Shown piece after piece: positions 1,803-15,275 of a DNA stretch of 64,000 nucleotides (positions within the stretch are counted from its first letter, which is position 1; every line of letters starts with the position of its first letter). A model generated the notes under the pieces. That model was not told the origin of the DNA. It did not search any database and was given only the letters and a program-made list of their open reading frames with translations. This DNA is from Eledone cirrhosa. Taxonomy: Eukaryota. Location of the stretch: contig OZ024754.1 of the NCBI GenBank assembly GCA_964016885.1, forward strand, positions 8,494,001 to 8,558,000. The letters run 5' to 3'. The position numbers were made by a program, and so were the translations under genes.

Positions 1803-2538
1803 TTATACTTCTCTTAGGTCAGTGTTGTTTGTTTGGGTGTTGTTGTTGTTCCACTCATTCTTTCTGTTTAGCTTTGGTCTTCTAATTTCTATTTCACTGG
1901 CCTCTCTGATTTGCCTATCTGCTGGGTCATTCCTATGTTTAGATATTATTCTAATTTCTATGTTGTCTATGTTACCGTCATGTTGTTGTCTAGCATGTTC
2001 GTATAGTACTGACCCGTTTTTTCGTCCTTTTAGTTCCCCCCAGTGTTGGTCTATCCTTTCACCTATGCTACGAGCTGTCTCACCTATGTATGTTGTTGTC
2101 ATGTTTCTGCAAGTACCCTCTGTACATCTTATGCTATAGACTACGTTTCTAGTTTTACAGTTTATCCGGGGGTTCACCTTACATATGATACATTTCCTAT
2201 TGGTACAGTGGGTTTTCTTAAAAGGGTAGGTTTTGCTGATCAGGGATTTTATGGTGGTTCCTGGCTTTTCTACCACCTTTATTTTTAAGTGGGTCTTTCT
2301 CAGGGCCTTTCTACACTGGTTAGCTAATTTCCCTCCAGGGGTGGCGTCCACAAACATGACACTCTGATATCTCTGGTTGTCGTACCATGATGTGGCCTTC
2401 CCTATCTTATGTCTAGCCCTATCTAAGCTATTCCATGATTTGCTCCTGTATAGTGGGCAAATTCCTTTCATGTCCAGTTCTATGAGGGTCTTATACTTTT
2501 CCATGGCTCCTTCGTATACTCTGACTCTGTCTCTTTGG
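1803..2538 (-). pseudogene. Penelope-like ORF, linker/Zn-knuckle plus GIY-YIG endonuclease (C-terminal fragment)
   Basis: CTNRKCIIC..CKTRNVVYSIRC..YIGETARSIGERIDQH..LYEH..IREASEI..PKLN; frame is open upstream to QRDRVRVYEGA at the inversion breakpoint. Confidence 0.9.
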
Positions 2539-2542
2539 GTGT

Positions 2543-3122
2543 AGAATCTACACCCAAAATGAGGGAGCAGCCATCGGCGTCAGCATAGCTGGTGATGTTG
2601 CCAACCTTTTCATGGTATGGTGGGAAAGGAGACTTAAAGATCTCCTTAATGAAAGCTCCATAGACCTCATCATGTACTCTCGTTATGTAGACGATATCAA
2701 TATAGTTATAAGAACACCCCCACTAGAGAGCACTAACAAGTTTGATTTGGAACGTAGCACGATGGAAAGCATCCAGCAGATAGCTAATTCCATACACCAG
2801 AGTATAACTGTAACTATAGACTTCCCTTCCAAACACCCTAACAATAGACTACCTGTATTAGACACAGAACTCTGGATTAACACTATAGACGAGAGAGCCC
2901 AAATTCTCCACTCACACTATGCTAAACCCATGGCCTCCAAATACCTGATACTCAAAAACTCAGCAATGTCCAGTAGTGCTAAGTTTAATATTCTGATCGC
3001 AGATTTGGTACGAGTGATGAAGAATGTGTCCAGCATGTGCGACCCAACAGAAATGGAAGGACACATCCAACACTTCATCAACCGCATGCAGTTCTCTGGC
3101 TACAACCAAAGAGACAGAGTCA
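2543..3122 (+). pseudogene. Penelope-like reverse transcriptase fragment (palm and thumb), inverted
   Basis: YTQNEGAAIGVSIAGDVANLFM, YSRYVDDI, LPVLDTELW, MQFSGYNQRDRV; it ends on the same residues at which the minus-strand fragment begins. Confidence 0.9.
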
Positions 3123-3270
3123 CTTTTGGATAGGAGACCTGACCGGGAGGGAGGGAGGTTGAGGAATCTAAAGAATTTAGCGGATAGGTAATCGTGAAGA
3201 TCCTTTACGCTATAACTTTGTAATGAACCTCAACCTCCCTCCCTCCCGGTCAGGTCTCCTATCCAAAAGT
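3122..3270. repeat. Viral terminal hairpin (~149 nt)
   Basis: Perfect 43-bp stem 3122-3164/3228-3270 containing GGGAGGGAGGGAGG; the 63-nt interior pairs imperfectly (AAAG/CTTT, TAGCG/CGCTA, AGG/CCT, ATC/GAT). Confidence 0.8.
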
Positions 3271-3339
3271 TCAGTGCATAGCACAGTTAGGAGAGGGGAC
3301 AGGCAAAGATATCAAATTACAAAGCAAGATTTGACAGTT

Positions 3340-3500
3340 AAGAAATGACGCAATATTAAAGCTACATCAGCAAAAAATAATGCTTGCGTTAGCAAAAGTA
3401 TAAATAGAACCACGTGACAGTAATTCAATATGCTAACGTCAGCAAGAATCGAGATATAAAAACAAAGAGCGCGCAACTCAAACTGCCACAACTCAGCAGA
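3340..3500 (+). promoter_or_regulatory. Putative viral Pol II promoter (mirror copy ~8190-8350 on -)
   Basis: TATAAATA at 3399-3406, TATAAAA at 3455-3461, E-box CACGTG at 3411, CRE-like TGACG/ACGTCA half-sites, all between the hairpin and ATG 3544. Confidence 0.5.
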
Positions 3501-3607
3501 CATCTTGCAGATACGAACGCCGTTACTCCGCAAAAAGATCAACATGAATTACGAAGATTTAAAGACGAGAGATCGAGATATGATTACTTCTTTGGCGGTA
3601 AGTCAGA

Positions 3608-5176
3608 ATGCCTTTACATTTACCAGGTTATAATTATTGTGGTCCATACACAAACAATTTACAAAAACAACCTGTTAACGAATTAGATAAATGCTGTCAA
3701 ATACACGACATAGAATACGGTAAAACAGAGGTAGATATAGCAGAAGCAGATAATAGATTAATACAGTGTTCTGAAAATATAGGCGGAGTAGCGGCGTTCG
3801 TAGTAGCAAACACAATCAAAGCTAAGAATTGGGTTATGCCACCGGCGAACAAAAAAAGAAGAGTAGAAGAAGAACAATCTAAGAAAAATCAAGAAGACCT
3901 TTGCGACGCATCAGACGAAGACTTTGTATCACAAGACAGCGGAATTAATAGTCAAACAGTAGACATGGGTGATCCACATGTAGGTCCAGCTCCTGGGGGC
4001 TCAGCAGCAATGGCAAGTGGAGATCAACCACCAGACATAGGCGATAAAAATCCAATCGTTTCAAAAAAATTTTCAAGAACTTTCATACACTACATAAACT
4101 GTTCGGATAATCCTACAGATAAAGCAATATACAAAACACATGATGATGAATACATAGAATTAACAATAAAACACAGAGCATCATACATACCATATACAGA
4201 ATTAAAAGCTAGTATGACAATAGCAGAATTAGAAACATATTTAACACCTTGCAATAATTTCAGAGTTAAATCATGTGGGTATCAAATATCAAATATAATT
4301 CCTTTAACAGACGAATTAGGAACATTACAAAATACAACTACAACTAACACAACATTCAATACAAGACCATGGATGATACATTACGTCGATAATAAATACT
4401 GTTTATTTCCTAATCAAACATACTTAATAGGACATTTAAACAATAATTGGACACATAACGTACCATTAACAAGGGAAGAAGGGAAACTAAATCAATGCAT
4501 TACAAATAGATTAATTAGAAAAGATTGGTGGTTATGGCAAGATACTAAGGCAGCGAAACCTACAGAACAAGAAATACCAGCAGAAGAAATATTGTCTTAT
4601 TTAAACACTGGTCAATTTCAATTCGTTTACGCTGGGGACACAGCAGGATATACATGGGTAAATAGAACTCCAAGTTGGTTCAATATGATGAACTATTATG
4701 CATTTAATTCTACATACGAACCACCAACAATAAAACTAACTAACGGGTTACCATGCGAAATAAATACTTATTCGGGGGCTAAAAAAAGTGCATGGGCACC
4801 AACGGAAAAAGGGGCATGGAGTAAATCAATGGCGGTAGATAAATCAAATGAAGAACAAAACACTGGCAGATCACATTTAACACAGTTTCCAATAAATCCA
4901 TCTAATCCACCGCCAATAGCTACTTTAGATTCTGTACCTATTCTAGATTCTCAAAACAATCCGGCTAAAATATCATTCATGATCACAATAACTTATCATT
5001 CTGAAATAGATTTCGAATATATTTCTGGCAGTCCACAAACCATGGGTTGGATGGCATGGGGAAAAGACAATGCAACAATACAAAATTCAGCCAAAACAAA
5101 TCTATGTAAATGGCCGCAAGGTTTACGTAATTATGAAATAACGAGAGTCGGTAAAACCCGACAAGCTCATCGTTAA
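3608..5176 (+). CDS. VP1: Parvoviral capsid protein VP1 with N-terminal phospholipase A2, 522 aa (copy 1)
   Basis: LPGYNYCGP Ca-loop-like motif, PVNELDKCCQIHDIEY catalytic HDxxY, ADxxL, NLS-like PPANKKRR, Gly-rich MGDPHVGPAPGGS (possible VP2 start), then a Thr/Asn-rich beta-type body. Confidence 0.9.
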   Translation: MPLHLPGYNYCGPYTNNLQKQPVNELDKCCQIHDIEYGKTEVDIAEADNRLIQCSENIGGVAAFVVANTIKAKNWVMPPANKKRRVEEEQSKKNQEDLCDASDEDFVSQDSGINSQTVDMGDPHVGPAPGGSAAMASGDQPPDIGDKNPIVSKKFSRTFIHYINCSDNPTDKAIYKTHDDEYIELTIKHRASYIPYTELKASMTIAELETYLTPCNNFRVKSCGYQISNIIPLTDELGTLQNTTTTNTTFNTRPWMIHYVDNKYCLFPNQTYLIGHLNNNWTHNVPLTREEGKLNQCITNRLIRKDWWLWQDTKAAKPTEQEIPAEEILSYLNTGQFQFVYAGDTAGYTWVNRTPSWFNMMNYYAFNSTYEPPTIKLTNGLPCEINTYSGAKKSAWAPTEKGAWSKSMAVDKSNEEQNTGRSHLTQFPINPSNPPPIATLDSVPILDSQNNPAKISFMITITYHSEIDFEYISGSPQTMGWMAWGKDNATIQNSAKTNLCKWPQGLRNYEITRVGKTRQAHR

Positions 5177-5183
5177 AGTAATA

Positions 5184-6473
5184 TTACAACAAATCTATCC
5201 ATTTTATATTTGCAGAAAAGAGGAATAAATTTTTATCGAATTTATTATTCGAAGTTATTATTAATGGTGTCCTGTGTACTATTTGGTCTTGACGGAATTT
5301 AACTGATACCTCAGTATCCGTCCCTTCCGCCAATTTCTTAAAAGTTTGTAGAGTTTCAAGAGAGAAGTTAGGTTCTTCTATGAGACCTAGCTCCACATTT
5401 ATTAAATTCTGGAAAGGGAAGCTGCTCGTTCCTTGAATGGTACTGACGTGCGTAAACATGTTAGATATACTACGCGCGATCATTGATTTGCCTGTGTTAG
5501 GCAGGCCGGTGAATACAAGCAAGTTTGTTTTGGCTTTGTATTTATTAAGCAAATCCCAAATACATTTTACAAGTTCTTCTTCGTCTATGTCTTGTGTCAT
5601 AATTATTGATCTAAATATTTTCAACGAAGTTTCGGTATCCATCCATAATTTGGTGTTTTCAAATTGTTTCCAATTCATATTCTCGAACTTTTCTTTGAAT
5701 GGCATTATCAGTGTTTTCAGTTTCACGCATTCGAGTACTTTCTTCATGACGCTGTCGTACATGGGATGACTGATAGCGCGCATGAAATTTTCGTTGTTTG
5801 CTCGGTTAAGCCAGTGTGTTTTCATCTCCTGTTCGTTTCGAAATTTTTTTGATGTGAATATATACGTCAGGTAGTTGAATAGAGTTAAAGTCGTACCACT
5901 TCTGCTTTTGAATGTCGGTTCGTCCGTGGCATGTCTTGTTGATGTACTCGTTTTAGGTGTTGGGCTACATTTAGGTACGTATTCTTTCGAGCACCATTCT
6001 GCAAATTCAGAGTTTATAGAACCGAGGCCTTTTATCAGTAAATATCTCGGTGGTTGGCAGAAGTAATTGGCCATGCTGCTAGGGAACTTTACTCTTTGAC
6101 ACTCTGGTATGTATCGCGCTAACTGTGTTCCCTTTTTGTACAAGCTTCTCACGTATTTGAGACGTTGGTTTTCTCCTGGTCTTATCTCTGAATTCCATAT
6201 GATATGGAAGTGGTTGAACGCATTCCATTCCTTTTTGTCGCATATTTTTGATTCTTTTGGATGGTAAATTACTGTTGCCTTGTTGATTTGAATAAATTCT
6301 ATTATTTTTCTGTTTGCATTAATTAGAAAGTTATTCTTGTATGCCCCTTCTTTTTCGTCGAAATCGTTTGTTGTTATTTCGTCGTGTTGTATCGGAACTC
6401 TACCGTTGTCCCAACTGAAGTCCGTTTCAAGTATCCAAGGATAAATGCACATGTACATTTTTATTCCTCTTTT
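5184..6473 (-). CDS. NS1: Parvoviral NS1/Rep main exon (HUH endonuclease plus SF3 helicase), C-terminus probably truncated at 5230
   Basis: FNHFHIIW (HUH), NYFCQPPR (catalytic Tyr), FTGLPNTGKS (Walker A), LIEEP (Walker B), FKKLAEG..VKF (B'), TPLIITSN (motif C). The last 14 aa are read from the antisense of the left arm. Confidence 0.9.
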   Translation of the reverse strand, partial: KRGIKMYMCIYPWILETDFSWDNGRVPIQHDEITTNDFDEKEGAYKNNFLINANRKIIEFIQINKATVIYHPKESKICDKKEWNAFNHFHIIWNSEIRPGENQRLKYVRSLYKKGTQLARYIPECQRVKFPSSMANYFCQPPRYLLIKGLGSINSEFAEWCSKEYVPKCSPTPKTSTSTRHATDEPTFKSRSGTTLTLFNYLTYIFTSKKFRNEQEMKTHWLNRANNENFMRAISHPMYDSVMKKVLECVKLKTLIMPFKEKFENMNWKQFENTKLWMDTETSLKIFRSIIMTQDIDEEELVKCIWDLLNKYKAKTNLLVFTGLPNTGKSMIARSISNMFTHVSTIQGTSSFPFQNLINVELGLIEEPNFSLETLQTFKKLAEGTDTEVSVKFRQDQIVHRTPLIITSNNKFDKNLFLFSANIKWIDLL

Positions 6474-6512
6474 CTGCAAATATAAAATGGATAGATTTGT
6501 TGTAATATTACT

Positions 6513-8081
6513 TTAACGATGAGCTTGTCGGGTTTTACCGACTCTCGTTATTTCATAATTACGTAAACCTTGCGGCCATTTACATAGATTTGTTTTGGCT
6601 GAATTTTGTATTGTTGCATTGTCTTTTCCCCATGCCATCCAACCCATGGTTTGTGGACTGCCAGAAATATATTCGAAATCTATTTCAGAATGATAAGTTA
6701 TTGTGATCATGAATGATATTTTAGCCGGATTGTTTTGAGAATCTAGAATAGGTACAGAATCTAAAGTAGCTATTGGCGGTGGATTAGATGGATTTATTGG
6801 AAACTGTGTTAAATGTGATCTGCCAGTGTTTTGTTCTTCATTTGATTTATCTACCGCCATTGATTTACTCCATGCCCCTTTTTCCGTTGGTGCCCATGCA
6901 CTTTTTTTAGCCCCCGAATAAGTATTTATTTCGCATGGTAACCCGTTAGTTAGTTTTATTGTTGGTGGTTCGTATGTAGAATTAAATGCATAATAGTTCA
7001 TCATATTGAACCAACTTGGAGTTCTATTTACCCATGTATATCCTGCTGTGTCCCCAGCGTAAACGAATTGAAATTGACCAGTGTTTAAATAAGACAATAT
7101 TTCTTCTGCTGGTATTTCTTGTTCTGTAGGTTTCGCTGCCTTAGTATCTTGCCATAACCACCAATCTTTTCTAATTAATCTATTTGTAATGCATTGATTT
7201 AGTTTCCCTTCTTCCCTTGTTAATGGTACGTTATGTGTCCAATTATTGTTTAAATGTCCTATTAAGTATGTTTGATTAGGAAATAAACAGTATTTATTAT
7301 CGACGTAATGTATCATCCATGGTCTTGTATTGAATGTTGTGTTAGTTGTAGTTGTATTTTGTAATGTTCCTAATTCGTCTGTTAAAGGAATTATATTTGA
7401 TATTTGATACCCACATGATTTAACTCTGAAATTATTGCAAGGTGTTAAATATGTTTCTAATTCTGCTATTGTCATACTAGCTTTTAATTCTGTATATGGT
7501 ATGTATGATGCTCTGTGTTTTATTGTTAATTCTATGTATTCATCATCATGTGTTTTGTATATTGCTTTATCTGTAGGATTATCCGAACAGTTTATGTAGT
7601 GTATGAAAGTTCTTGAAAATTTTTTTGAAACGATTGGATTTTTATCGCCTATGTCTGGTGGTTGATCTCCACTTGCCATTGCTGCTGAGCCCCCAGGAGC
7701 TGGACCTACATGTGGATCACCCATGTCTACTGTTTGACTATTAATTCCGCTGTCTTGTGATACAAAGTCTTCGTCTGATGCGTCGCAAAGGTCTTCTTGA
7801 TTTTTCTTAGATTGTTCTTCTTCTACTCTTCTTTTTTTGTTCGCCGGTGGCATAACCCAATTCTTAGCTTTGATTGTGTTTGCTACTACGAACGCCGCTA
7901 CTCCGCCTATATTTTCAGAACACTGTATTAATCTATTATCTGCTTCTGCTATATCTACCTCTGTTTTACCGTATTCTATGTCGTGTATTTGACAGCATTT
8001 ATCTAATTCGTTAACAGGTTGTTTTTGTAAATTGTTTGTGTATGGACCACAATAATTATAACCTGGTAAATGTAAAGGCAT
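6513..8081 (-). CDS. VP1: Parvoviral capsid protein VP1 with PLA2, 522 aa (copy 2, identical translation)
   Basis: Translation identical to 3608-5176. Confidence 0.9.
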   Translation of the reverse strand: MPLHLPGYNYCGPYTNNLQKQPVNELDKCCQIHDIEYGKTEVDIAEADNRLIQCSENIGGVAAFVVANTIKAKNWVMPPANKKRRVEEEQSKKNQEDLCDASDEDFVSQDSGINSQTVDMGDPHVGPAPGGSAAMASGDQPPDIGDKNPIVSKKFSRTFIHYINCSDNPTDKAIYKTHDDEYIELTIKHRASYIPYTELKASMTIAELETYLTPCNNFRVKSCGYQISNIIPLTDELGTLQNTTTTNTTFNTRPWMIHYVDNKYCLFPNQTYLIGHLNNNWTHNVPLTREEGKLNQCITNRLIRKDWWLWQDTKAAKPTEQEIPAEEILSYLNTGQFQFVYAGDTAGYTWVNRTPSWFNMMNYYAFNSTYEPPTIKLTNGLPCEINTYSGAKKSAWAPTEKGAWSKSMAVDKSNEEQNTGRSHLTQFPINPSNPPPIATLDSVPILDSQNNPAKISFMITITYHSEIDFEYISGSPQTMGWMAWGKDNATIQNSAKTNLCKWPQGLRNYEITRVGKTRQAHR

Positions 8082-8091
8082 TCTGACTTAC

Positions 8092-8145
8092 CGCCAAAGA
8101 AGTAATCATATCTCGATCTCTCGTCTTTAAATCTTCGTAATTCAT
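8092..8145 (-). CDS. Putative NS1 exon 1 (MNYEDLKTRDRDMITSLA); mirror copy 3544-3597 on +
   Basis: ATG plus 17 codons ending at a consensus donor GCG|GTAAGT, phase 0, compatible with the acceptor TTTTATATTTGCAG| at 6474. Confidence 0.65.
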
Positions 8146-8528
8146 GTTGATCTTTTTGCGGAGTAACGGCGTTCGTATCTGCAAGATGTCTGCTGAGTTG
8201 TGGCAGTTTGAGTTGCGCGCTCTTTGTTTTTATATCTCGATTCTTGCTGACGTTAGCATATTGAATTACTGTCACGTGGTTCTATTTATACTTTTGCTAA
8301 CGCAAGCATTATTTTTTGCTGATGTAGCTTTAATATTGCGTCATTTCTTAACTGTCAAATCTTGCTTTGTAATTTGATATCTTTGCCTGTCCCCTCTCCT
8401 AACTGTGCTATGCACTGAACTTTTGGATAGGAGACCTGACCGGGAGGGAGGGAGGTTGAGGTTCATTACAAAGTTATAGCGTAAAGGATCTTCACGATTA
8501 CCTATCCGCTAAATTCTTTAGATTCTTT

Positions 8529-8770: not shown

Positions 8771-9504
8771 AGTTTCATAATATGTTGTTATTTGTAAACA
8801 CCTATGATTTAAAATACGGTTTGAAATGCAAAAAAAAAAAACATTTTTTTTGTTTTTAATAGAATTTAGCATTGCCTTTTATCGATTAAAAGCCGAATTT
8901 ATCGATTGGCACTTTAGACGGCCATCAGAATTTCTCTTTGATGCAAGTTGACATAGCAGGGAACACAGTGGAATTCTTTTACCAATAACAGACGCCAACA
9001 GCCAGACCACGAGAAATTATCATGTCTTTCATTTTATTCAACTTTAATGTATAGGCACGTTTAAGTCAGTGAGGACTTTTCTTTGTGATGATTCAACACA
9101 TGTACATATCTGTGAGTGTGTGTGTGTGTTTACGTATATATGTATATGTGTACGTACGTACATCATACATATATGATGGCTGCAACTCGATTTCGAGTAA
9201 TGCCATTACTTTATACTTAAGCTTGGGATTCACGGATGTGGCTTTTTAGTCCTGCTAGGGACTTGCCTATGACCAGCAATGCTATGCATCACAAATAATG
9301 TCACATATCAAGCAATTCCTGCGCTTGAAGCTTTTTAAGTGAGGAAAAGATTTGCAAGGGGCCAATCCCACTCTCTGAACATCAAATGCATTTGTCCAAA
9401 AAGAACTGGTCTACATCATTGGTTGCAAACGAAGTCGCAGGTTTTATATCAGAGTGACCTTCTCTTAGAGAGATGCCTTAATGCAAACTAGGGGTCTCTC
9501 GAGA

Positions 9505-11245
9505 CATATCTACAGCTAAGTTATGAAATTAACTCCTTAACCACAGAACTACAGTTGTACATAAGTTGTGAAGTAAAAACCTTAACTACACAACCATGTC
9601 TGCACAAATGTTGTGAAGTGAACTAACTCCTCAACAACACAACCATGTCTGTGTATATGTTGTGAAGTGAAAACCTTAACCAATCAACTATATCTTCACA
9701 GCTGTTCTCAAGAAAACGTATTAACACAGCCATGCCTACCTACACCTATGTTTTGAAAAAAACTCTTTAAGCACAGATCAATACCTAGACCTATGTTGTG
9801 AAGTGAACTCCTTAAACACACATCCATATATACACCTATGTTGTGAAGTGAACTGCTCAATCACACATCCATATATACACCAATGTTGTGAAGTGAACTG
9901 CTCAATCACACATCTATATATACACCAATGTTGGGAAGTGAACTCCTTAAACATACAGACATGCCCACACTTATGTTGTGTAATGAATTTCTCAACCACA
10001 CATTCATAACTACACCTGTTGTGAAGTGACCTCTTTAAACACAATGCTATGTCTACACATGTTTTTAACTTCGTTTTTAACTTCTTAACCACACAGCCAT
10101 ATATACACCTATGTTGTGACTAGAACTCCTTAACCACACAGCCATACCTATGTTGTAAAATGAACGCCGTAACTACACAGCCATATCAACACCTAAGTTG
10201 TGAAGAGAACTCTTTATCCACACAACCATACCTACAGCTAAGTTGTGAATTGAACTCCTTATCCACACAGTCATATCTACAGCTATGTTTTGAAGTGAAC
10301 TCCTTAAACACACAACTGTATCTAAACTTTGTTATAAAGAGAAATCTTCAACCACGTAGCTATAACTAAAGCTATGCTTGGAAGTGAAATCATTGATCAC
10401 CAGACATATCTACACATATGTTGTGAAATGAATTCCTTAACCACACAACGATGTCTACACTTACGTTGTGAAGTGGACACCACCTTAACCACACAGCCAT
10501 ATCTGCACCTAAGTTGTGAAAAAAACTCCTTAAACACACAGCCATACCTTCATCTATGAGGTGGAGTGAATTCCTTAACCACACAGCCATATCTACATAT
10601 AAATTGTGATAACGTTTTAAACACATATCGATATCTACACCTATGTTGTGAAGTGAACTCCTTAACCACACAGCCACAACTACACCTGTTGTGAAGTGAA
10701 CTCCTGATAAAAACAATCATAACTACACCTGTTGTGAAGTGAACTCCTGATGAAAACAATCATAACTACACCTGTTGTGAAGTGAACTCCTGATGAAAAC
10801 AGTCATAACTACACCTGTTGTGAAGTGAACTCCTTAACCACACAGCCACAACTACACCTGTTGTGAAGTGAACTCCTTAACCACACAGCCACAACTACAC
10901 CTGTTGTGAAGTGAACTCCTGATAAAAACAATCATAACTACACCTGTTGTGAAGTGAACTCCTGATGAAAACAGTCATAACTACACCTGTTGTGAAGTGA
11001 ACTCCTTAACCACACAGCCATAACTACACCTGTTGTGAAGTGAACTCCTTACCACACAGCCATAACTACACCTGTTGTGAAGTGAACTCCTGATAAAAAC
11101 AGTCATAACTACACCTGTTGTGAAGTGAACTCCTGATAAAAACAGTCATAACTACACCTGTTGTGAAGTGAACTCTTGATAAAAACAGTCATAACTACAC
11201 CTGTTGTGAAGTGAACTCTTGATAAAAACAGTCATAACTACACCT
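9505..11245. repeat. ~43-45-bp minisatellite, degenerate on the left and homogenised at 10670-11245
   Basis: Unit AACTACACCTGTTGTGAAGTGAACTCCT(TAACCACACAGCCAT or GATAAAAACAGTCAT); period 43 (10681 to 10724). Confidence 0.9.
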
Positions 11246-12479
11246 ATGTTGTTGGGGGTTTTTTTGTTTTTTGTTGTTGTTTTTTGTTGCTTGTTTTTAT
11301 TTAACGAAAGCACAAACAAATATAATATAAAGGAAAGGGAAAACAAAAAAGAGAGGAAAAGAAAGAGAAAAGAAAAAAGAAAAAAACAGAAGTGATTAGC
11401 ACACACATCTGAGACCACATACAACAAAGGGCAGGCAAAAGAGGTGGACAACCGAGCCGCTACCAGAATAACCTATGTTGTCAAGTAAACTCCTTAACCA
11501 CACAGCCATAGACTGTGGAAATATTTTACAAATCAAAAAAAAATTTTCACAAAACCTCGTAAACTGTTAATAAAAAGGCTTTACATAAAAACAAGTTATT
11601 TTGTGTCATTTTTGTGTTAATAGAAAGTGTATATGGACTTGCAGGGGAATGAACTCTCTCCCTCTTAATCGGATCTAAAAAATAGTTCAATAATATTTGT
11701 TATAAAATGGGCTTTCGAAAGAGTCCCAGTAAAAAAAAAAATAGGGAAAAAAAATCAGAGAAAGGAAGTGAGCTCTTTAAAATACTTTCAGAGTTGTCCG
11801 TCTTAAACTGATAAAAAGAAGTTTAATACATTAAATAGATAAAATAAAGGATTGTTTCTCGAAAGAGAAAAGGAATAGACATGCAAGAGAGTGTACTCTA
11901 TAAAATATTTTCTGAGTTGTCTCCCTTGACCGGAACTTAAAATATTACGAAAATAAAAGCATGAATCAAGTATTTTTTAAAAAATGAAATTTATTGATTA
12001 GTTTCAATATATACGAAAAAGAATATATGAAATAGAAAACATTAAATAAAAGATAGATTTTCAAGAATGGGCAAGAAACAATATGGGAGGAAACTTTTTG
12101 AATATTTTCAGAGTTGTGTCCCTTAACCGGAAGTTTAAAACTGTAAGAAATAGCGTTGAAATATACGAAGATATATATATATATATATATATGAGAAAAT
12201 TTGTCCATAAAATGTTTCCTAAAGTAATCTTTTTATAAATTTATCTTGATTGTGTCCTTAAGGAATACATTTCACAACATATCTGTAGATTTATCTATGT
12301 GATTAAGCAGTTCACTTCACTGCATAACTGTAAGTTTGACTGTTGTTAAAGTATTTACTTCACATTATAATAACGAAAATTATTGTGTACAGTGCTCAGG
12401 TGCACTACAACTAAAGTAAATTGAAAACTTAATTAACTGACATTTTCCAAACAATTCAAATGGGAGCCGACGTCTGTTG

Positions 12480-13059: not shown

Positions 13060-15275
13060 AGAATAACAAGTAGGAACCCTATCTGAAACAGGCACTGCTT
13101 GAAATTAAAATTGCACTCAAACTTTCACATGAGAAGGGGAGGGCGGAGAGAGAAGCCAGGGCCATAGAAAATATTAAAACAAACACAAAGGCCTTCTTTA
13201 AATTTGCAAAAGAGACTGCCTCGGTACACTGCAAGATTGGGCCACTTTTTCATAAAAATGGCTCATTGACCGAGGATCCTCAAGGGATAAGTGAAATACT
13301 GAAAGAACAGTACAAAAATGTGTTCATACCTCCACTGAGATACATGCAAATAACAAAGCCAGAGGAATTCTTTGATGACACAGCACTCCACGAAGAAATG
13401 GCAACCATCAACCACATAGATATAATGGAAGCCATAGAAGAAATGAGAGCAAACTCAGCTGCTGGACCTGATGGATTCCCAGCAGTCCTCCTAAAAACAT
13501 ACCTTAACAAGATCACTGAAGATTCTATTCAGATGTTCTCTGCTTGTGGTAAACCACCCAGAGAGCAAAAAGAAGGCATAATATGCCATATCCACAAAGG
13601 AGGAAGCAGAGCAAAGGCTAAAATGCCAGTCTCCCTGACGTCACATATCAGTAAGGTCATGGAATGAATTATTAGAAGGAAACTGATTATGTTCCTTGAG
13701 GAAAATGACCGCCTAACACTCAGCATGGCTTTCACCTAGGAAGAGGCTGCCTTACACAGCTTTTACAACATTACGACTGGGTACTGAAACAACTGCTGGA
13801 CAGCTCACATGTGGATGTAATATATGTTGACTTTGTGAAGGCCTTTGACAAGGTCGACCATGGAATGATATATCACAAACTACACAGACTCGGCATAACT
13901 GGAAAAGTAGGTGAGTGGCTACATGACTTCTTAAAAGACAAAAACCAGACTGTTGCAGCCAATGGGTCCCACTCAAAGGAAACATCAATAACTAGCGAGG
14001 TGCCCCAGGGCACAGTCTTAGGATCACAACTGTTTTTGGTGGCTCTTCCAGACATGCCCTCTGTAGTACATACAACATCCCTCACTAGCTATACTGATGA
14101 CACAAAGGTAGCACAGGCAATCAAGAACCTGGCTGATGCTACTATTTTACAAGATCTGGATGCCATATACAAATGGGCTGAGGACAACAACATGCAGTTC
14201 AATGCTGGAAAATTTCAAGCCCTACGATATCAACCTGCTAACACAATGACAGTACAGCACAGCTACACAGGACCAGGAGGAATTAAAATCCCTGTGTCGA
14301 AATCAATATGAGACCTGGGTATAGACATGACTGATGATGCAACGTTTCATTCACACATCATGAAAATGGCGACAATGTGCAGACAACTCGCCAGCTGGAT
14401 CTTGAGGACTTTCAAGACAAGAGACCGAGAAACCATGTTGGTACTATGGAGGACATTTGTCCTAAGCCGACCGGACTATTGTTCCCAACTATGGTGACCC
14501 TCATAGTGTCAAACTAACCACAGAGTTTGAAACAATCCAACAAAGTTACACCAAGAGGATTGCAACAATAAAGGAGATGAACTACTGGGAGAGGTTAAAA
14601 GAACTGAAACTCTAATCTTTGGAACGAAGGCAGGAGAGAAACGCTGTGATATACATATGGAAGATCCTGGAGGGAATAGCACAAAACTTTGGCATTGAGA
14701 GCTGGACCAACATCCGAACAGGACGTCACTGTGTGGTGCCAAAGGTCCCGTCTTTCACATCTAGAGTAAGGAGCAGATATTGCAATAACCTGGGGTTCAA
14801 GAAGGGGCCCTAGCTTTTTAATAAACTGCCAAAACATTTTAGAGATCTACATGGTGTGCATGTAGATATCTTCAAGAGACACCCAAACAGGACGTCACTG
14901 TGTGGTGCCAAAGGTCCCGTCTTTCATATCTAGAGTAAGGAGCAGATATTGCAATAGCATGGAGTTCAAGGGACCCTAGCTTTTTAATAAACTGCCAAAA
15001 AATTTGAGAGATCTACATGGTGTACATGTAGATATCTTCAAGAGACACCCAAACAGGACGTCACTGCGTGGTGCCAAAGGTCCCGTCTTTCATATCTAGA
15101 GTAAGGAGCAGATATTGCAATAGCATGGGGTTCAAGGGACCCTAGCTTTTTAATAAACTGCCAAAACATTTGAGAGATCTACATGGTGTGCATGTAGATA
15201 TCTTCAAGAGACATCTCAACATTCTACAGAGCAAGATCCCAGATGAACTTACATCACGAGGTTTGAGCAGCAGCA
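13060..15275 (+). mobile_element. Decayed CR1-like LINE, ORF2 reverse transcriptase region
   Basis: SAAGPDGF, PVSLTSHISKVME, DVIYVDFVKAFDKVDH, VPQGTVLG, YTDDTK, WAEDNNMQFNAGKF; several frameshifts and stops. Confidence 0.88.

What the first reader, a model, noticed from the sequence alone, without database searches (positions are those of the whole stretch)
5184..8145. Parvovirus-like genome whose capsid gene appears nested inside an intron of the NS1/Rep gene
Seen: on the minus strand the order is hairpin end, TATA, ATG(8145)-MNYEDLKTRDRDMITSLA, donor GCG|GTAAGT (8091), VP1 ATG 10 nt later, VP stop (6513), acceptor TTTTATATTTGCAG| (6474), then KRGIKMYMCIYP.. and the HUH/SF3 NS1. Both sites are phase 0, so removing a 1618-nt intron that holds the entire 1569-nt VP ORF gives a contiguous ~447-aa NS1. 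Established: Parvoviridae are monosense NS-then-VP or ambisense. Inference: one promoter yields Rep when spliced and capsid when the intron is retained, a VP-first layout that I do not recognise from described genera.
Basis: partly seen in the sequence, partly recalled or inferred. Interest (0 to 1): 0.92.

Follow-up and report, generated by a model that had tools for sequence, protein, structure and literature searches.

The report
Parvovirus with capsid inside Rep intron
A family of parvoviruses embedded in this animal's genome puts its capsid gene first and hides it inside an intron of the replication gene, the mirror image of the layout described for parvoviruses, and the predicted splice was seen in one probable RNA data set.

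Summary
The core claim holds. All coordinates check. Of 40 NS1 places tallied in this genome, 23 have VP directly upstream on the same strand, 2 rearranged ones the reverse, none VP only on the opposite strand. An 18-codon first exon sits before 11 of 13 VP starts (10 with GT[A/G]AGT), and an AG at one fixed in-frame position in 12 of 13 anchored copies. A probable RNA run shows the exact 1618-nt GT..AG joint; a DNA run does not, and no near-identical genomic copy lacks the intron. VP folds as a parvovirus jelly roll with a PLA2 N-terminus.

Corrections: the window copy is rearranged. Its 2066-nt left end is duplicated in inverted form (second VP at 3608-5176), which cuts NS1 short. The 447-aa product belongs to this copy only; the uninterrupted frame gives about 572 aa. 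A distant second lineage (NS1 25% identical) is also VP-first but lacks this first exon.

Open: the joint rests on one contig, and how VP is translated past two upstream AUGs is unexplained. I found no VP-first parvovirus in nine literature searches.

The parts
3122..3273 (.). Left terminal hairpin: long perfect stem with GGGA repeats and an imperfect inner palindrome
   Evidence: DNA fold -63.4 kcal/mol, z -15.9, 0 of 200 shuffles as good; both flip and flop orientations occur among genomic copies
3164..5229 (+). Left arm of a 2066-nt perfect inverted duplication (promoter region, first exon, whole VP, acceptor)
   Evidence: 100% complementary to 6460-8525
3544..3597 (+). Mirror copy of the 18-codon first exon
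   Evidence: exon found at 7 places in the genome, 2 of them here
3608..5176 (+). Second, identical VP gene
5184..5228 (-). Non-native 14-codon tail and stop of the window NS1 frame, read from the antisense of the left arm
   Evidence: other copies diverge at this point and read on
5229..6473 (-). NS1 second exon, native part (415 codons): HUH motif, catalytic Tyr motif, SF3 Walker A, B, C; cut before the invariant Arg that follows Walker C
   Evidence: Pfam Parvo_NS1 E 4e-16; alignment of 8 relatives; break position
6474..6488 (-). Splice acceptor: pyrimidine tract and CAG
   Evidence: AG at this codon position in 12 of 13 anchored copies; tract 75% pyrimidine against 42% overall; joint in run X19
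6474..8091 (-). 1618-nt GT..AG intron that holds the whole VP ORF
   Evidence: joint 6473/8092, skip 1618, in X19 and not X16
6513..8081 (-). VP1 capsid gene, 522 aa: PLA2 domain then jelly-roll core
   Evidence: Pfam Phospholip_A2_4 E 2e-13; top 20 structural matches all parvovirus capsids, Z 9.9-16.2
8086..8091 (-). Splice donor GTAAGT, phase 0, 10 nt before the VP ATG
   Evidence: only GTRAGT in the 3231-nt strand
8092..8145 (-). First coding exon of NS1, 18 codons
   Evidence: ATG exactly 54 nt before the donor position in 11 of 13 VP starts
8227..8290 (-). Two TATA-like words, candidate single promoter
   Evidence: sequence only; start site not measured
6460..8525 (-). Right arm of the inverted duplication; ends in a partial hairpin next to a (TA)n tract

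Best explanation
This is a very recently integrated, rearranged copy of a linear parvovirus whose native order is left hairpin, promoter, 18-codon exon, VP, NS1 body, poly(A) signal, right hairpin (about 4 kb). One upstream transcript is processed two ways. Spliced: the 1618-nt intron with the whole capsid gene is removed and the first exon is joined in frame to the NS1 body, giving NS1 of about 572 aa (joint seen once; protein inferred). Unspliced: the first exon runs into a stop after 28-29 codons, overlapping the VP start, and VP is read from the same RNA by leaky scanning or backward re-initiation (inferred). The splice ratio would set the Rep-to-capsid balance (inferred). In the window copy a template switch replaced the last quarter of NS1 and the right end with an inverted copy of the left 2066 nt. 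That leaves an NS1 without its arginine finger and two facing promoters likely to make double-stranded RNA (inferred).
For: Order: 23 of 40 tallied NS1 places have VP upstream on the same strand, 2 the reverse, 0 opposite-strand only, 15 no VP nearby. The same order lies on one 3476-nt contig from another organism (X6). First exon: ATG 54 nt before the donor in 11 of 13 VP starts, GT[A/G]AGT in 10 of these; also 18 codons plus GTAAGT in a far more distant copy (L055). Acceptor: AG 18 nt before the conserved Tyr codon in 12 of 13, next best offset 4 of 13. The VP-stop-to-AG distance is 26-39 nt in all three phases, which excludes a conserved read-through. The first Met after the acceptor is Leu in 6 of 13 copies while the codons before it stay conserved. 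Joint 6473/8092 with GT..AG ends in X19, absent from DNA run X16. All 7 near-identical first exons are followed by VP and all 5 second exons lie 1617-1618 nt away. X19 behaves like RNA: 88 against 1381 million contig letters, and A>G/T>C places 176 against 49 for G>A/C>T, versus 109 against 99 in X16, p 2e-8. X1 contigs end at 8092 and 8121, as a fork at the donor would give.
Against: The joint is one contig in one run whose kind is not on record, with 29 letters on the short side and 'between: not known', at 80% likeness. No such joint is shown for X1 or X6, though 14 of 29 joints were not displayed. The third-position excess in the first exon is only p 0.07. Several copies are close pairs, so independent lineages are fewer than the counts. 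A second Met two codons later is kept in 12 of 13 copies, so an internal start is possible. The first-exon ATG has A at -3 in 10 of 10 copies and codon 13 is a second ATG in 10 of 10, which makes leaky scanning to VP awkward. No transcription start was measured. The A>G excess counts differences that include paralogous copies.
Confidence: 0.85

Rival explanations
1. VP-first layout, but NS1 is made mainly from its own internal promoter and starts at a Met just after the VP stop; the splice is minor.
For: The second lineage in this genome works that way on its face: own ATG and TATA-like words between VP stop and NS1 in 3 of 6 junctions viewed. A Met is kept just after the acceptor in 12 of 13 lineage-A copies.
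Against: No TATA-like word in the 26-39 nt gap of lineage A; conserved first exon, donor and acceptor in frame; joint seen.
Confidence: 0.08
2. The layout is a by-product of integration: an ordinary NS-then-VP or ambisense genome permuted in a concatemer, or inverted as in this window, so that VP merely appears first.
For: The window copy and three near-identical copies are heavily rearranged, with fold-backs and head-to-head joins. The left VP does face NS1 as in an ambisense genome. Two places show NS then VP.
Against: There is no hairpin or promoter between VP stop and NS1; different hairpins flank the VP side and the NS1 side. The same short junction recurs in many diverged copies on different contigs and in another organism. 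The NS1/left-VP junction is unique to this copy and cuts NS1.
Confidence: 0.03
3. The joint in X19 is not splicing but a DNA deletion or processed copy in that individual, or a chance join of contig pieces.
For: Run kind not on record; short side 29 letters; other listed joints in the same table are evidently spurious.
Against: It falls exactly on sites predicted beforehand, with GT..AG ends; absent from X16; no intron-less near-identical copy in the assembly; even a processed copy would presuppose the splice.
Confidence: 0.04

Closest known systems
Single-promoter parvoviruses (Amdoparvovirus; erythro- and bocaparvoviruses recalled)
   Same: One pre-mRNA from one promoter gives NS and VP by alternative splicing (PMC4600916, passage read); heterotelomeric hairpins.
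   Different: There NS is left and VP right. Here the order is mirrored and the capsid gene is the part that is spliced out.
Penaeus monodon metallodensovirus (Metallovirinae) and Syngnathus scovelli chapparvovirus
   Same: Best sequence matches of the VP core: 6wh3 E 5e-8, 9nek E 2e-3; 9nek is the top Foldseek row.
   Different: Matches are short and weak; PmMDV lacks PLA2 and has identical ends (PMC11357303), whereas this VP has PLA2 and the ends differ. The PmMDV transcript map could not be read.
Swazi bat megaparvovirus-like lineage (PMC13426907, section 17 read)
   Same: Unusual layout with a PLA2-bearing ORF upstream of NS1 and a predicted splice.
   Different: Their capsid ORF still follows NS1 and lacks PLA2; genomes are about 6.4 kb with four ORFs. 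Here the whole jelly-roll gene precedes NS1.
Unclassified bird-cloaca 'parvoviridae sp.' NS1 (QTE03882.1, QTZ83199.1, QTE03847.1)
   Same: Nearest named NS1 proteins among 20 looked up, profile E 1e-51 to 2e-42.
   Different: Separate branches in the helicase tree. The paper that appears to describe such genomes calls them monosense or ambisense without noting a VP-first order (PMC9896142); its figure maps were not visible.
Retroviral env and anellovirus splicing (recalled, not tested)
   Same: A whole upstream structural gene is removed as an intron to express a downstream gene.
   Different: Unrelated viruses; analogy of mechanism only.

Membership tests
Parvoviridae | NS1 with SF3 helicase domain (basis of family classification, PMC13426907 section 3) | tested here: met
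   Parvo_NS1 E 4e-16 above cut-off; best solved matches NS1 and AAV Rep
Parvoviridae | HUH endonuclease motifs in NS1 | tested here: met
   HFH motif in 7 of 7 rows that cover it and an invariant Tyr in 8 of 8; motif level only, no profile hit or fold
Parvoviridae | Single jelly-roll capsid protein of parvovirus type | tested here: met
   Model mean pLDDT 51; 20 best VIA-align rows are parvovirus capsids, top Z 16.2, rmsd 4.3, 251 aligned; next unrelated row 7.5; Foldseek agrees
Parvoviridae | Terminal palindromic hairpins on a 4-6 kb genome | tested here: met
   Left hairpin z -15.9; a different right hairpin sharing the GGGA-repeat word in another copy, about 4 kb apart
Parvoviridae | Linear single-stranded DNA packaged in T=1 particles | not testable with these tools
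   Only integrated copies and contigs were seen
Described parvovirus layouts (monosense NS-left/VP-right, or ambisense) | NS cassette left, VP right on the same or the opposite strand (PMC11357303 section 5) | tested here: not met
   VP upstream of NS1 on the same strand in 23 of 25 informative places
Any established genus or subfamily | NS1 35-40% identical over 80% to a member (PMC11357303) | tested here: inconclusive
   The 6 close NS1 relatives are unnamed; named ones are unclassified and distant; no direct comparison with ICTV exemplars was possible
Ambisense Densovirinae | VP and NS on opposite strands | tested here: not met
   0 of 40 places with VP only on the opposite strand; the facing VP in the window is a copy-specific duplication

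The most novel reading that the evidence does not exclude
An undescribed genus- or subfamily-level group of capsid-first parvoviruses is still entering the germ line of a cephalopod-like host. It has solved Rep expression in two ways: by nesting the capsid gene in a Rep intron (lineage A) and by an internal promoter (lineage B). Host splicing would then act as the early-late switch. The window copy, with two facing promoters and A-to-G-rich RNA, would be a natural double-stranded-RNA source against its own virus.
Probability: 0.5. Interest if true: 0.9.

Novelty: new variant of a known kind. Interest (0 to 1): 0.82.

Why it matters
A recent review states that all parvoviruses keep NS on the left and VP on the right (PMC11357303, section 5). 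This family breaks that rule across many diverged copies and in a second organism, and does so with a whole gene inside an intron of the other. It raises a testable question: how does a virus that needs Rep early and capsid late time them when the default, unspliced message is the capsid? It also gives a young, expressed parvovirus family in an animal group for which my searches found no parvovirus report. Gene callers that ignore splicing give these NS1 proteins wrong starts, so other capsid-first genomes may sit unnoticed in databases.

Tried and rejected
Related loci with DNA context: no hit in viral contigs with the NS1 protein, two alignments or P0026 and none in metagenome contigs, so gene order outside this genome rests on one contig of another organism. 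The look-up of sequencing runs: no RNA holder listed on record; X19 is taken as RNA by inference only. Contig depth was not used to rank genes. Single-sequence fold of VP failed (pLDDT 31); the 10-row alignment was used instead. Helicase tree (106 of 112 candidate rows kept; quick method, careful search unfinished): lineages A and B fall in separate supported groups with an unresolved backbone, so one origin of the VP-first order is neither shown nor excluded. Literature: nine searches gave no listing of a VP-first or intron-nested parvovirus; most were seen as listings only, and subscription papers, ICTV proposals and figures are not covered. The PmMDV paper and the AMDV transcription paper were not held. 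The supplement search of PMC9896142 showed only sample rows for the three bird names. Earlier findings of this scan: nothing. Rejected readings: assembly artefact for the inverted arm (a contig of X19 crosses the 5229/5230 junction by 30 letters; weak but direct); 2-kb terminal repeats as the native genome form (other copies lack them); read-through or frameshift from VP into NS1 (gap length not phase-conserved); the AATAAA just after the acceptor as a conserved VP poly(A) signal (present in 2 of 13 copies shown). In one search, 2 of 15 VP ends had no anchor and were dropped before the 12-of-13 count; the script also missed the donor of L061, which one search shows.

Full report
Observation. 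Every coordinate in the finding is correct: an 18-codon ORF start at 8145, GTAAGT at 8091, VP from 8081 to 6513, a pyrimidine tract and CAG ending at 6474, a 1618-nt phase-0 intron, and 447 codons by arithmetic. The repeat scan adds that 3164-5229 and 6460-8525 are a perfect 2066-nt inverted repeat, with a second identical VP on the plus strand. The only complete hairpin is at the left end, 3122-3273 (-63.4 kcal/mol, z -15.9).

The genes. The downstream frame carries Parvo_NS1 (E 4e-16), an HFH motif and an invariant Tyr. The upstream frame has a parvovirus PLA2 domain (E 2e-13). A model from a 10-row alignment (mean pLDDT 51) matches parvovirus capsids in its 20 best rows, top Z 16.2 with rmsd 4.3 over 251 residues, against 7.5 for the next unrelated row. 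So the gene inside the intron is a full capsid gene. Its nearest named relative is an Octopus vulgaris protein at 38%; the host is probably a cephalopod (inference).

Which junction is native. The window offers two readings: VP then NS1 on one strand, or NS1 facing the left VP as in an ambisense genome. The genome holds 73 NS1 and 78 VP matches. I tallied 40 NS1 places of the closer lineage, one per place, against 30 VP places: 23 have VP directly upstream on the same strand, 2 the reverse order (both next to further fragments), none VP only on the opposite strand, 15 no VP within 1 kb. Near-identical copies on three other contigs share the VP-to-NS1 junction; two of them run past the point where the window frame enters the left arm, with open frames of 460 and 567 codons. 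The window copy is therefore cut after codon 415 of the second exon and loses an Arg that is invariant in the 8-row alignment, by position the helicase arginine finger (recalled role). The uninterrupted frame gives about 572 aa. A different hairpin sharing the GGGA-repeat word follows NS1 and a poly(A) signal in another copy, and both hairpin orientations occur among copies, as rolling-hairpin replication predicts (established knowledge).

Splice-site conservation. Of 13 VP starts examined, 11 have an ATG exactly 54 nt before the donor position; 10 have GT[A/G]AGT, one a decayed ATAAGT. The donor lies 7 or 10 nt before the VP ATG. A much more distant copy (NS1 pieces 29-40% identical) also has 18 codons then GTAAGT (L055). 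Of 15 VP ends, 13 could be anchored; 12 have AG ending 18 nt before a conserved Tyr codon, while no other offset exceeds 4. The tract before it is 75% pyrimidine against 42%. After the AG, conservation follows codons (0.69, 0.79, 0.49 by position). The first Met there is Leu in 6 of 13 copies. The stop-to-AG gap is 26-39 nt in all three phases. Against: the third-position excess in the first exon is only p 0.07, and some copies are close pairs.

Transcript evidence. Four runs were laid on 5180-8520. X19 shows a joint from 6473 to 8092, skipping 1618, with ends that read GT..AG on the minus strand; DNA-sized run X16 does not. It is one contig, 29 letters on the short side, flagged 'between: not known'. 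X19 is not on record as RNA; its size (88 against 1381 million letters) and its A>G/T>C excess (176 to 49, against 109 to 99 in X16; p 2e-8) point that way. All 7 near-identical first exons in the assembly are followed by VP, and all 5 second exons lie 1617-1618 nt from one, so no intron-less DNA copy explains the joint. A contig of X19 runs from 6474 across the copy-specific junction to 5200, so the rearranged copy is probably real and transcribed. In another organism a 3476-nt contig (X6) spans first exon, VP and NS1 in the same order, about 89% identical, and continues into the native C-terminus; contigs of X1 end at 8092 and 8121, a hint of a fork at the donor. No splice joint was displayed for X1 or X6 (14 of 29 joints not shown).

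A second lineage. NS1 25% and VP about 22% identical to the first, it is also VP-then-NS1 on one strand in L038, L041, L051, L052 and L054. It shows no such first exon; NS1 has its own ATG, with TATA-like words between the genes in 3 of 6 junctions viewed. The helicase tree places the two lineages in separate groups on an unresolved backbone.

Mechanism. Shown: order, sites, frame, one joint. Inferred: one promoter; NS1 from the spliced RNA; VP from the unspliced RNA; splice ratio as the early-late control. Unexplained: on the unspliced RNA the VP ATG is the third AUG, behind a first ATG with A at -3 and a second at codon 13 in 10 of 10 copies, inside a 28-29-codon upstream frame that overlaps it. 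Leaky scanning is the most likely route (known for densoviruses, recalled); a second start site or backward re-initiation are the alternatives.

Comparison with what is known. A 2024 review says all parvoviruses have NS left and VP right or opposite (PMC11357303, section 5 read). A 2026 paper lists monosense, ambisense and bipartite genomes (PMC13426907, section 3) and describes a lineage with a PLA2 ORF upstream but VP still after NS1 (section 17). Amdoparvoviruses use one promoter and splicing with NS left (PMC4600916, passage). Mollusc parvovirus-related sequences outside known genera were noted without layouts in the passages seen (PMC5013282). PMC12115719 (passages) identified entry 9nek. 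It works like a single-promoter parvovirus in mirror image; it meets the testable family features; it fits no described layout. Nine searches found no report of this order, within the limits of an open-access library without figures.

Verdict. A real, well-supported new layout within Parvoviridae, seen here in a damaged copy. New variant of a known kind; interest 0.82.

Noticed in passing
window 1806-3133: The element's left end abuts a reverse-transcriptase fragment (2525-3133, +; weak RVT_1) and an opposite-strand frame (2579-1806) with GIY-YIG-like words (no Pfam hit), which recalls a Penelope-like retroelement with an inversion.
   Followed up: partly
L031 6579-8000: At the right end of another copy the hairpin extends into a perfect fold-back of about 700 nt, as in a replication intermediate.
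   Followed up: partly
L033 3788-10000 and L034 1-1400: Three VP copies and two NS1 pieces in head-to-head and inverted order, 99.9-100% identical to the window element: four near-identical insertion sites on different contigs suggest very recent integration.
   Followed up: partly
L037 6346 to L038 8964: Two lineage-A copies flank a lineage-B copy within about 12 kb, all on one strand: a small cluster of parvovirus insertions.
   Followed up: no
run X19 on window 5180-8520: Strong A>G/T>C excess, as A-to-I editing of double-stranded RNA from the facing arms would give.
   Followed up: partly
P0015 N-terminus: A distant unnamed NS1 begins with Phe-Phe-Ser before a G-x-K-L-Y motif like the one after the acceptor here; this could be a translated pyrimidine tract, hinting at the same splice. 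No DNA was available.
   Followed up: no
L042 5044-8577: An NS1 piece lies in one 991-codon open frame with a retroelement-like upstream part.
   Followed up: no
window 32418-64000: A 71-nt satellite array of about 445 copies, 95% matches, with strong strand skew.
   Followed up: no
window 9469-11308: Degenerate 43-45-nt tandem repeats to the right of the element.
   Followed up: no
window 13074-14311: Two frames that read like pieces of a LINE reverse transcriptase (by eye, not searched).
   Followed up: no
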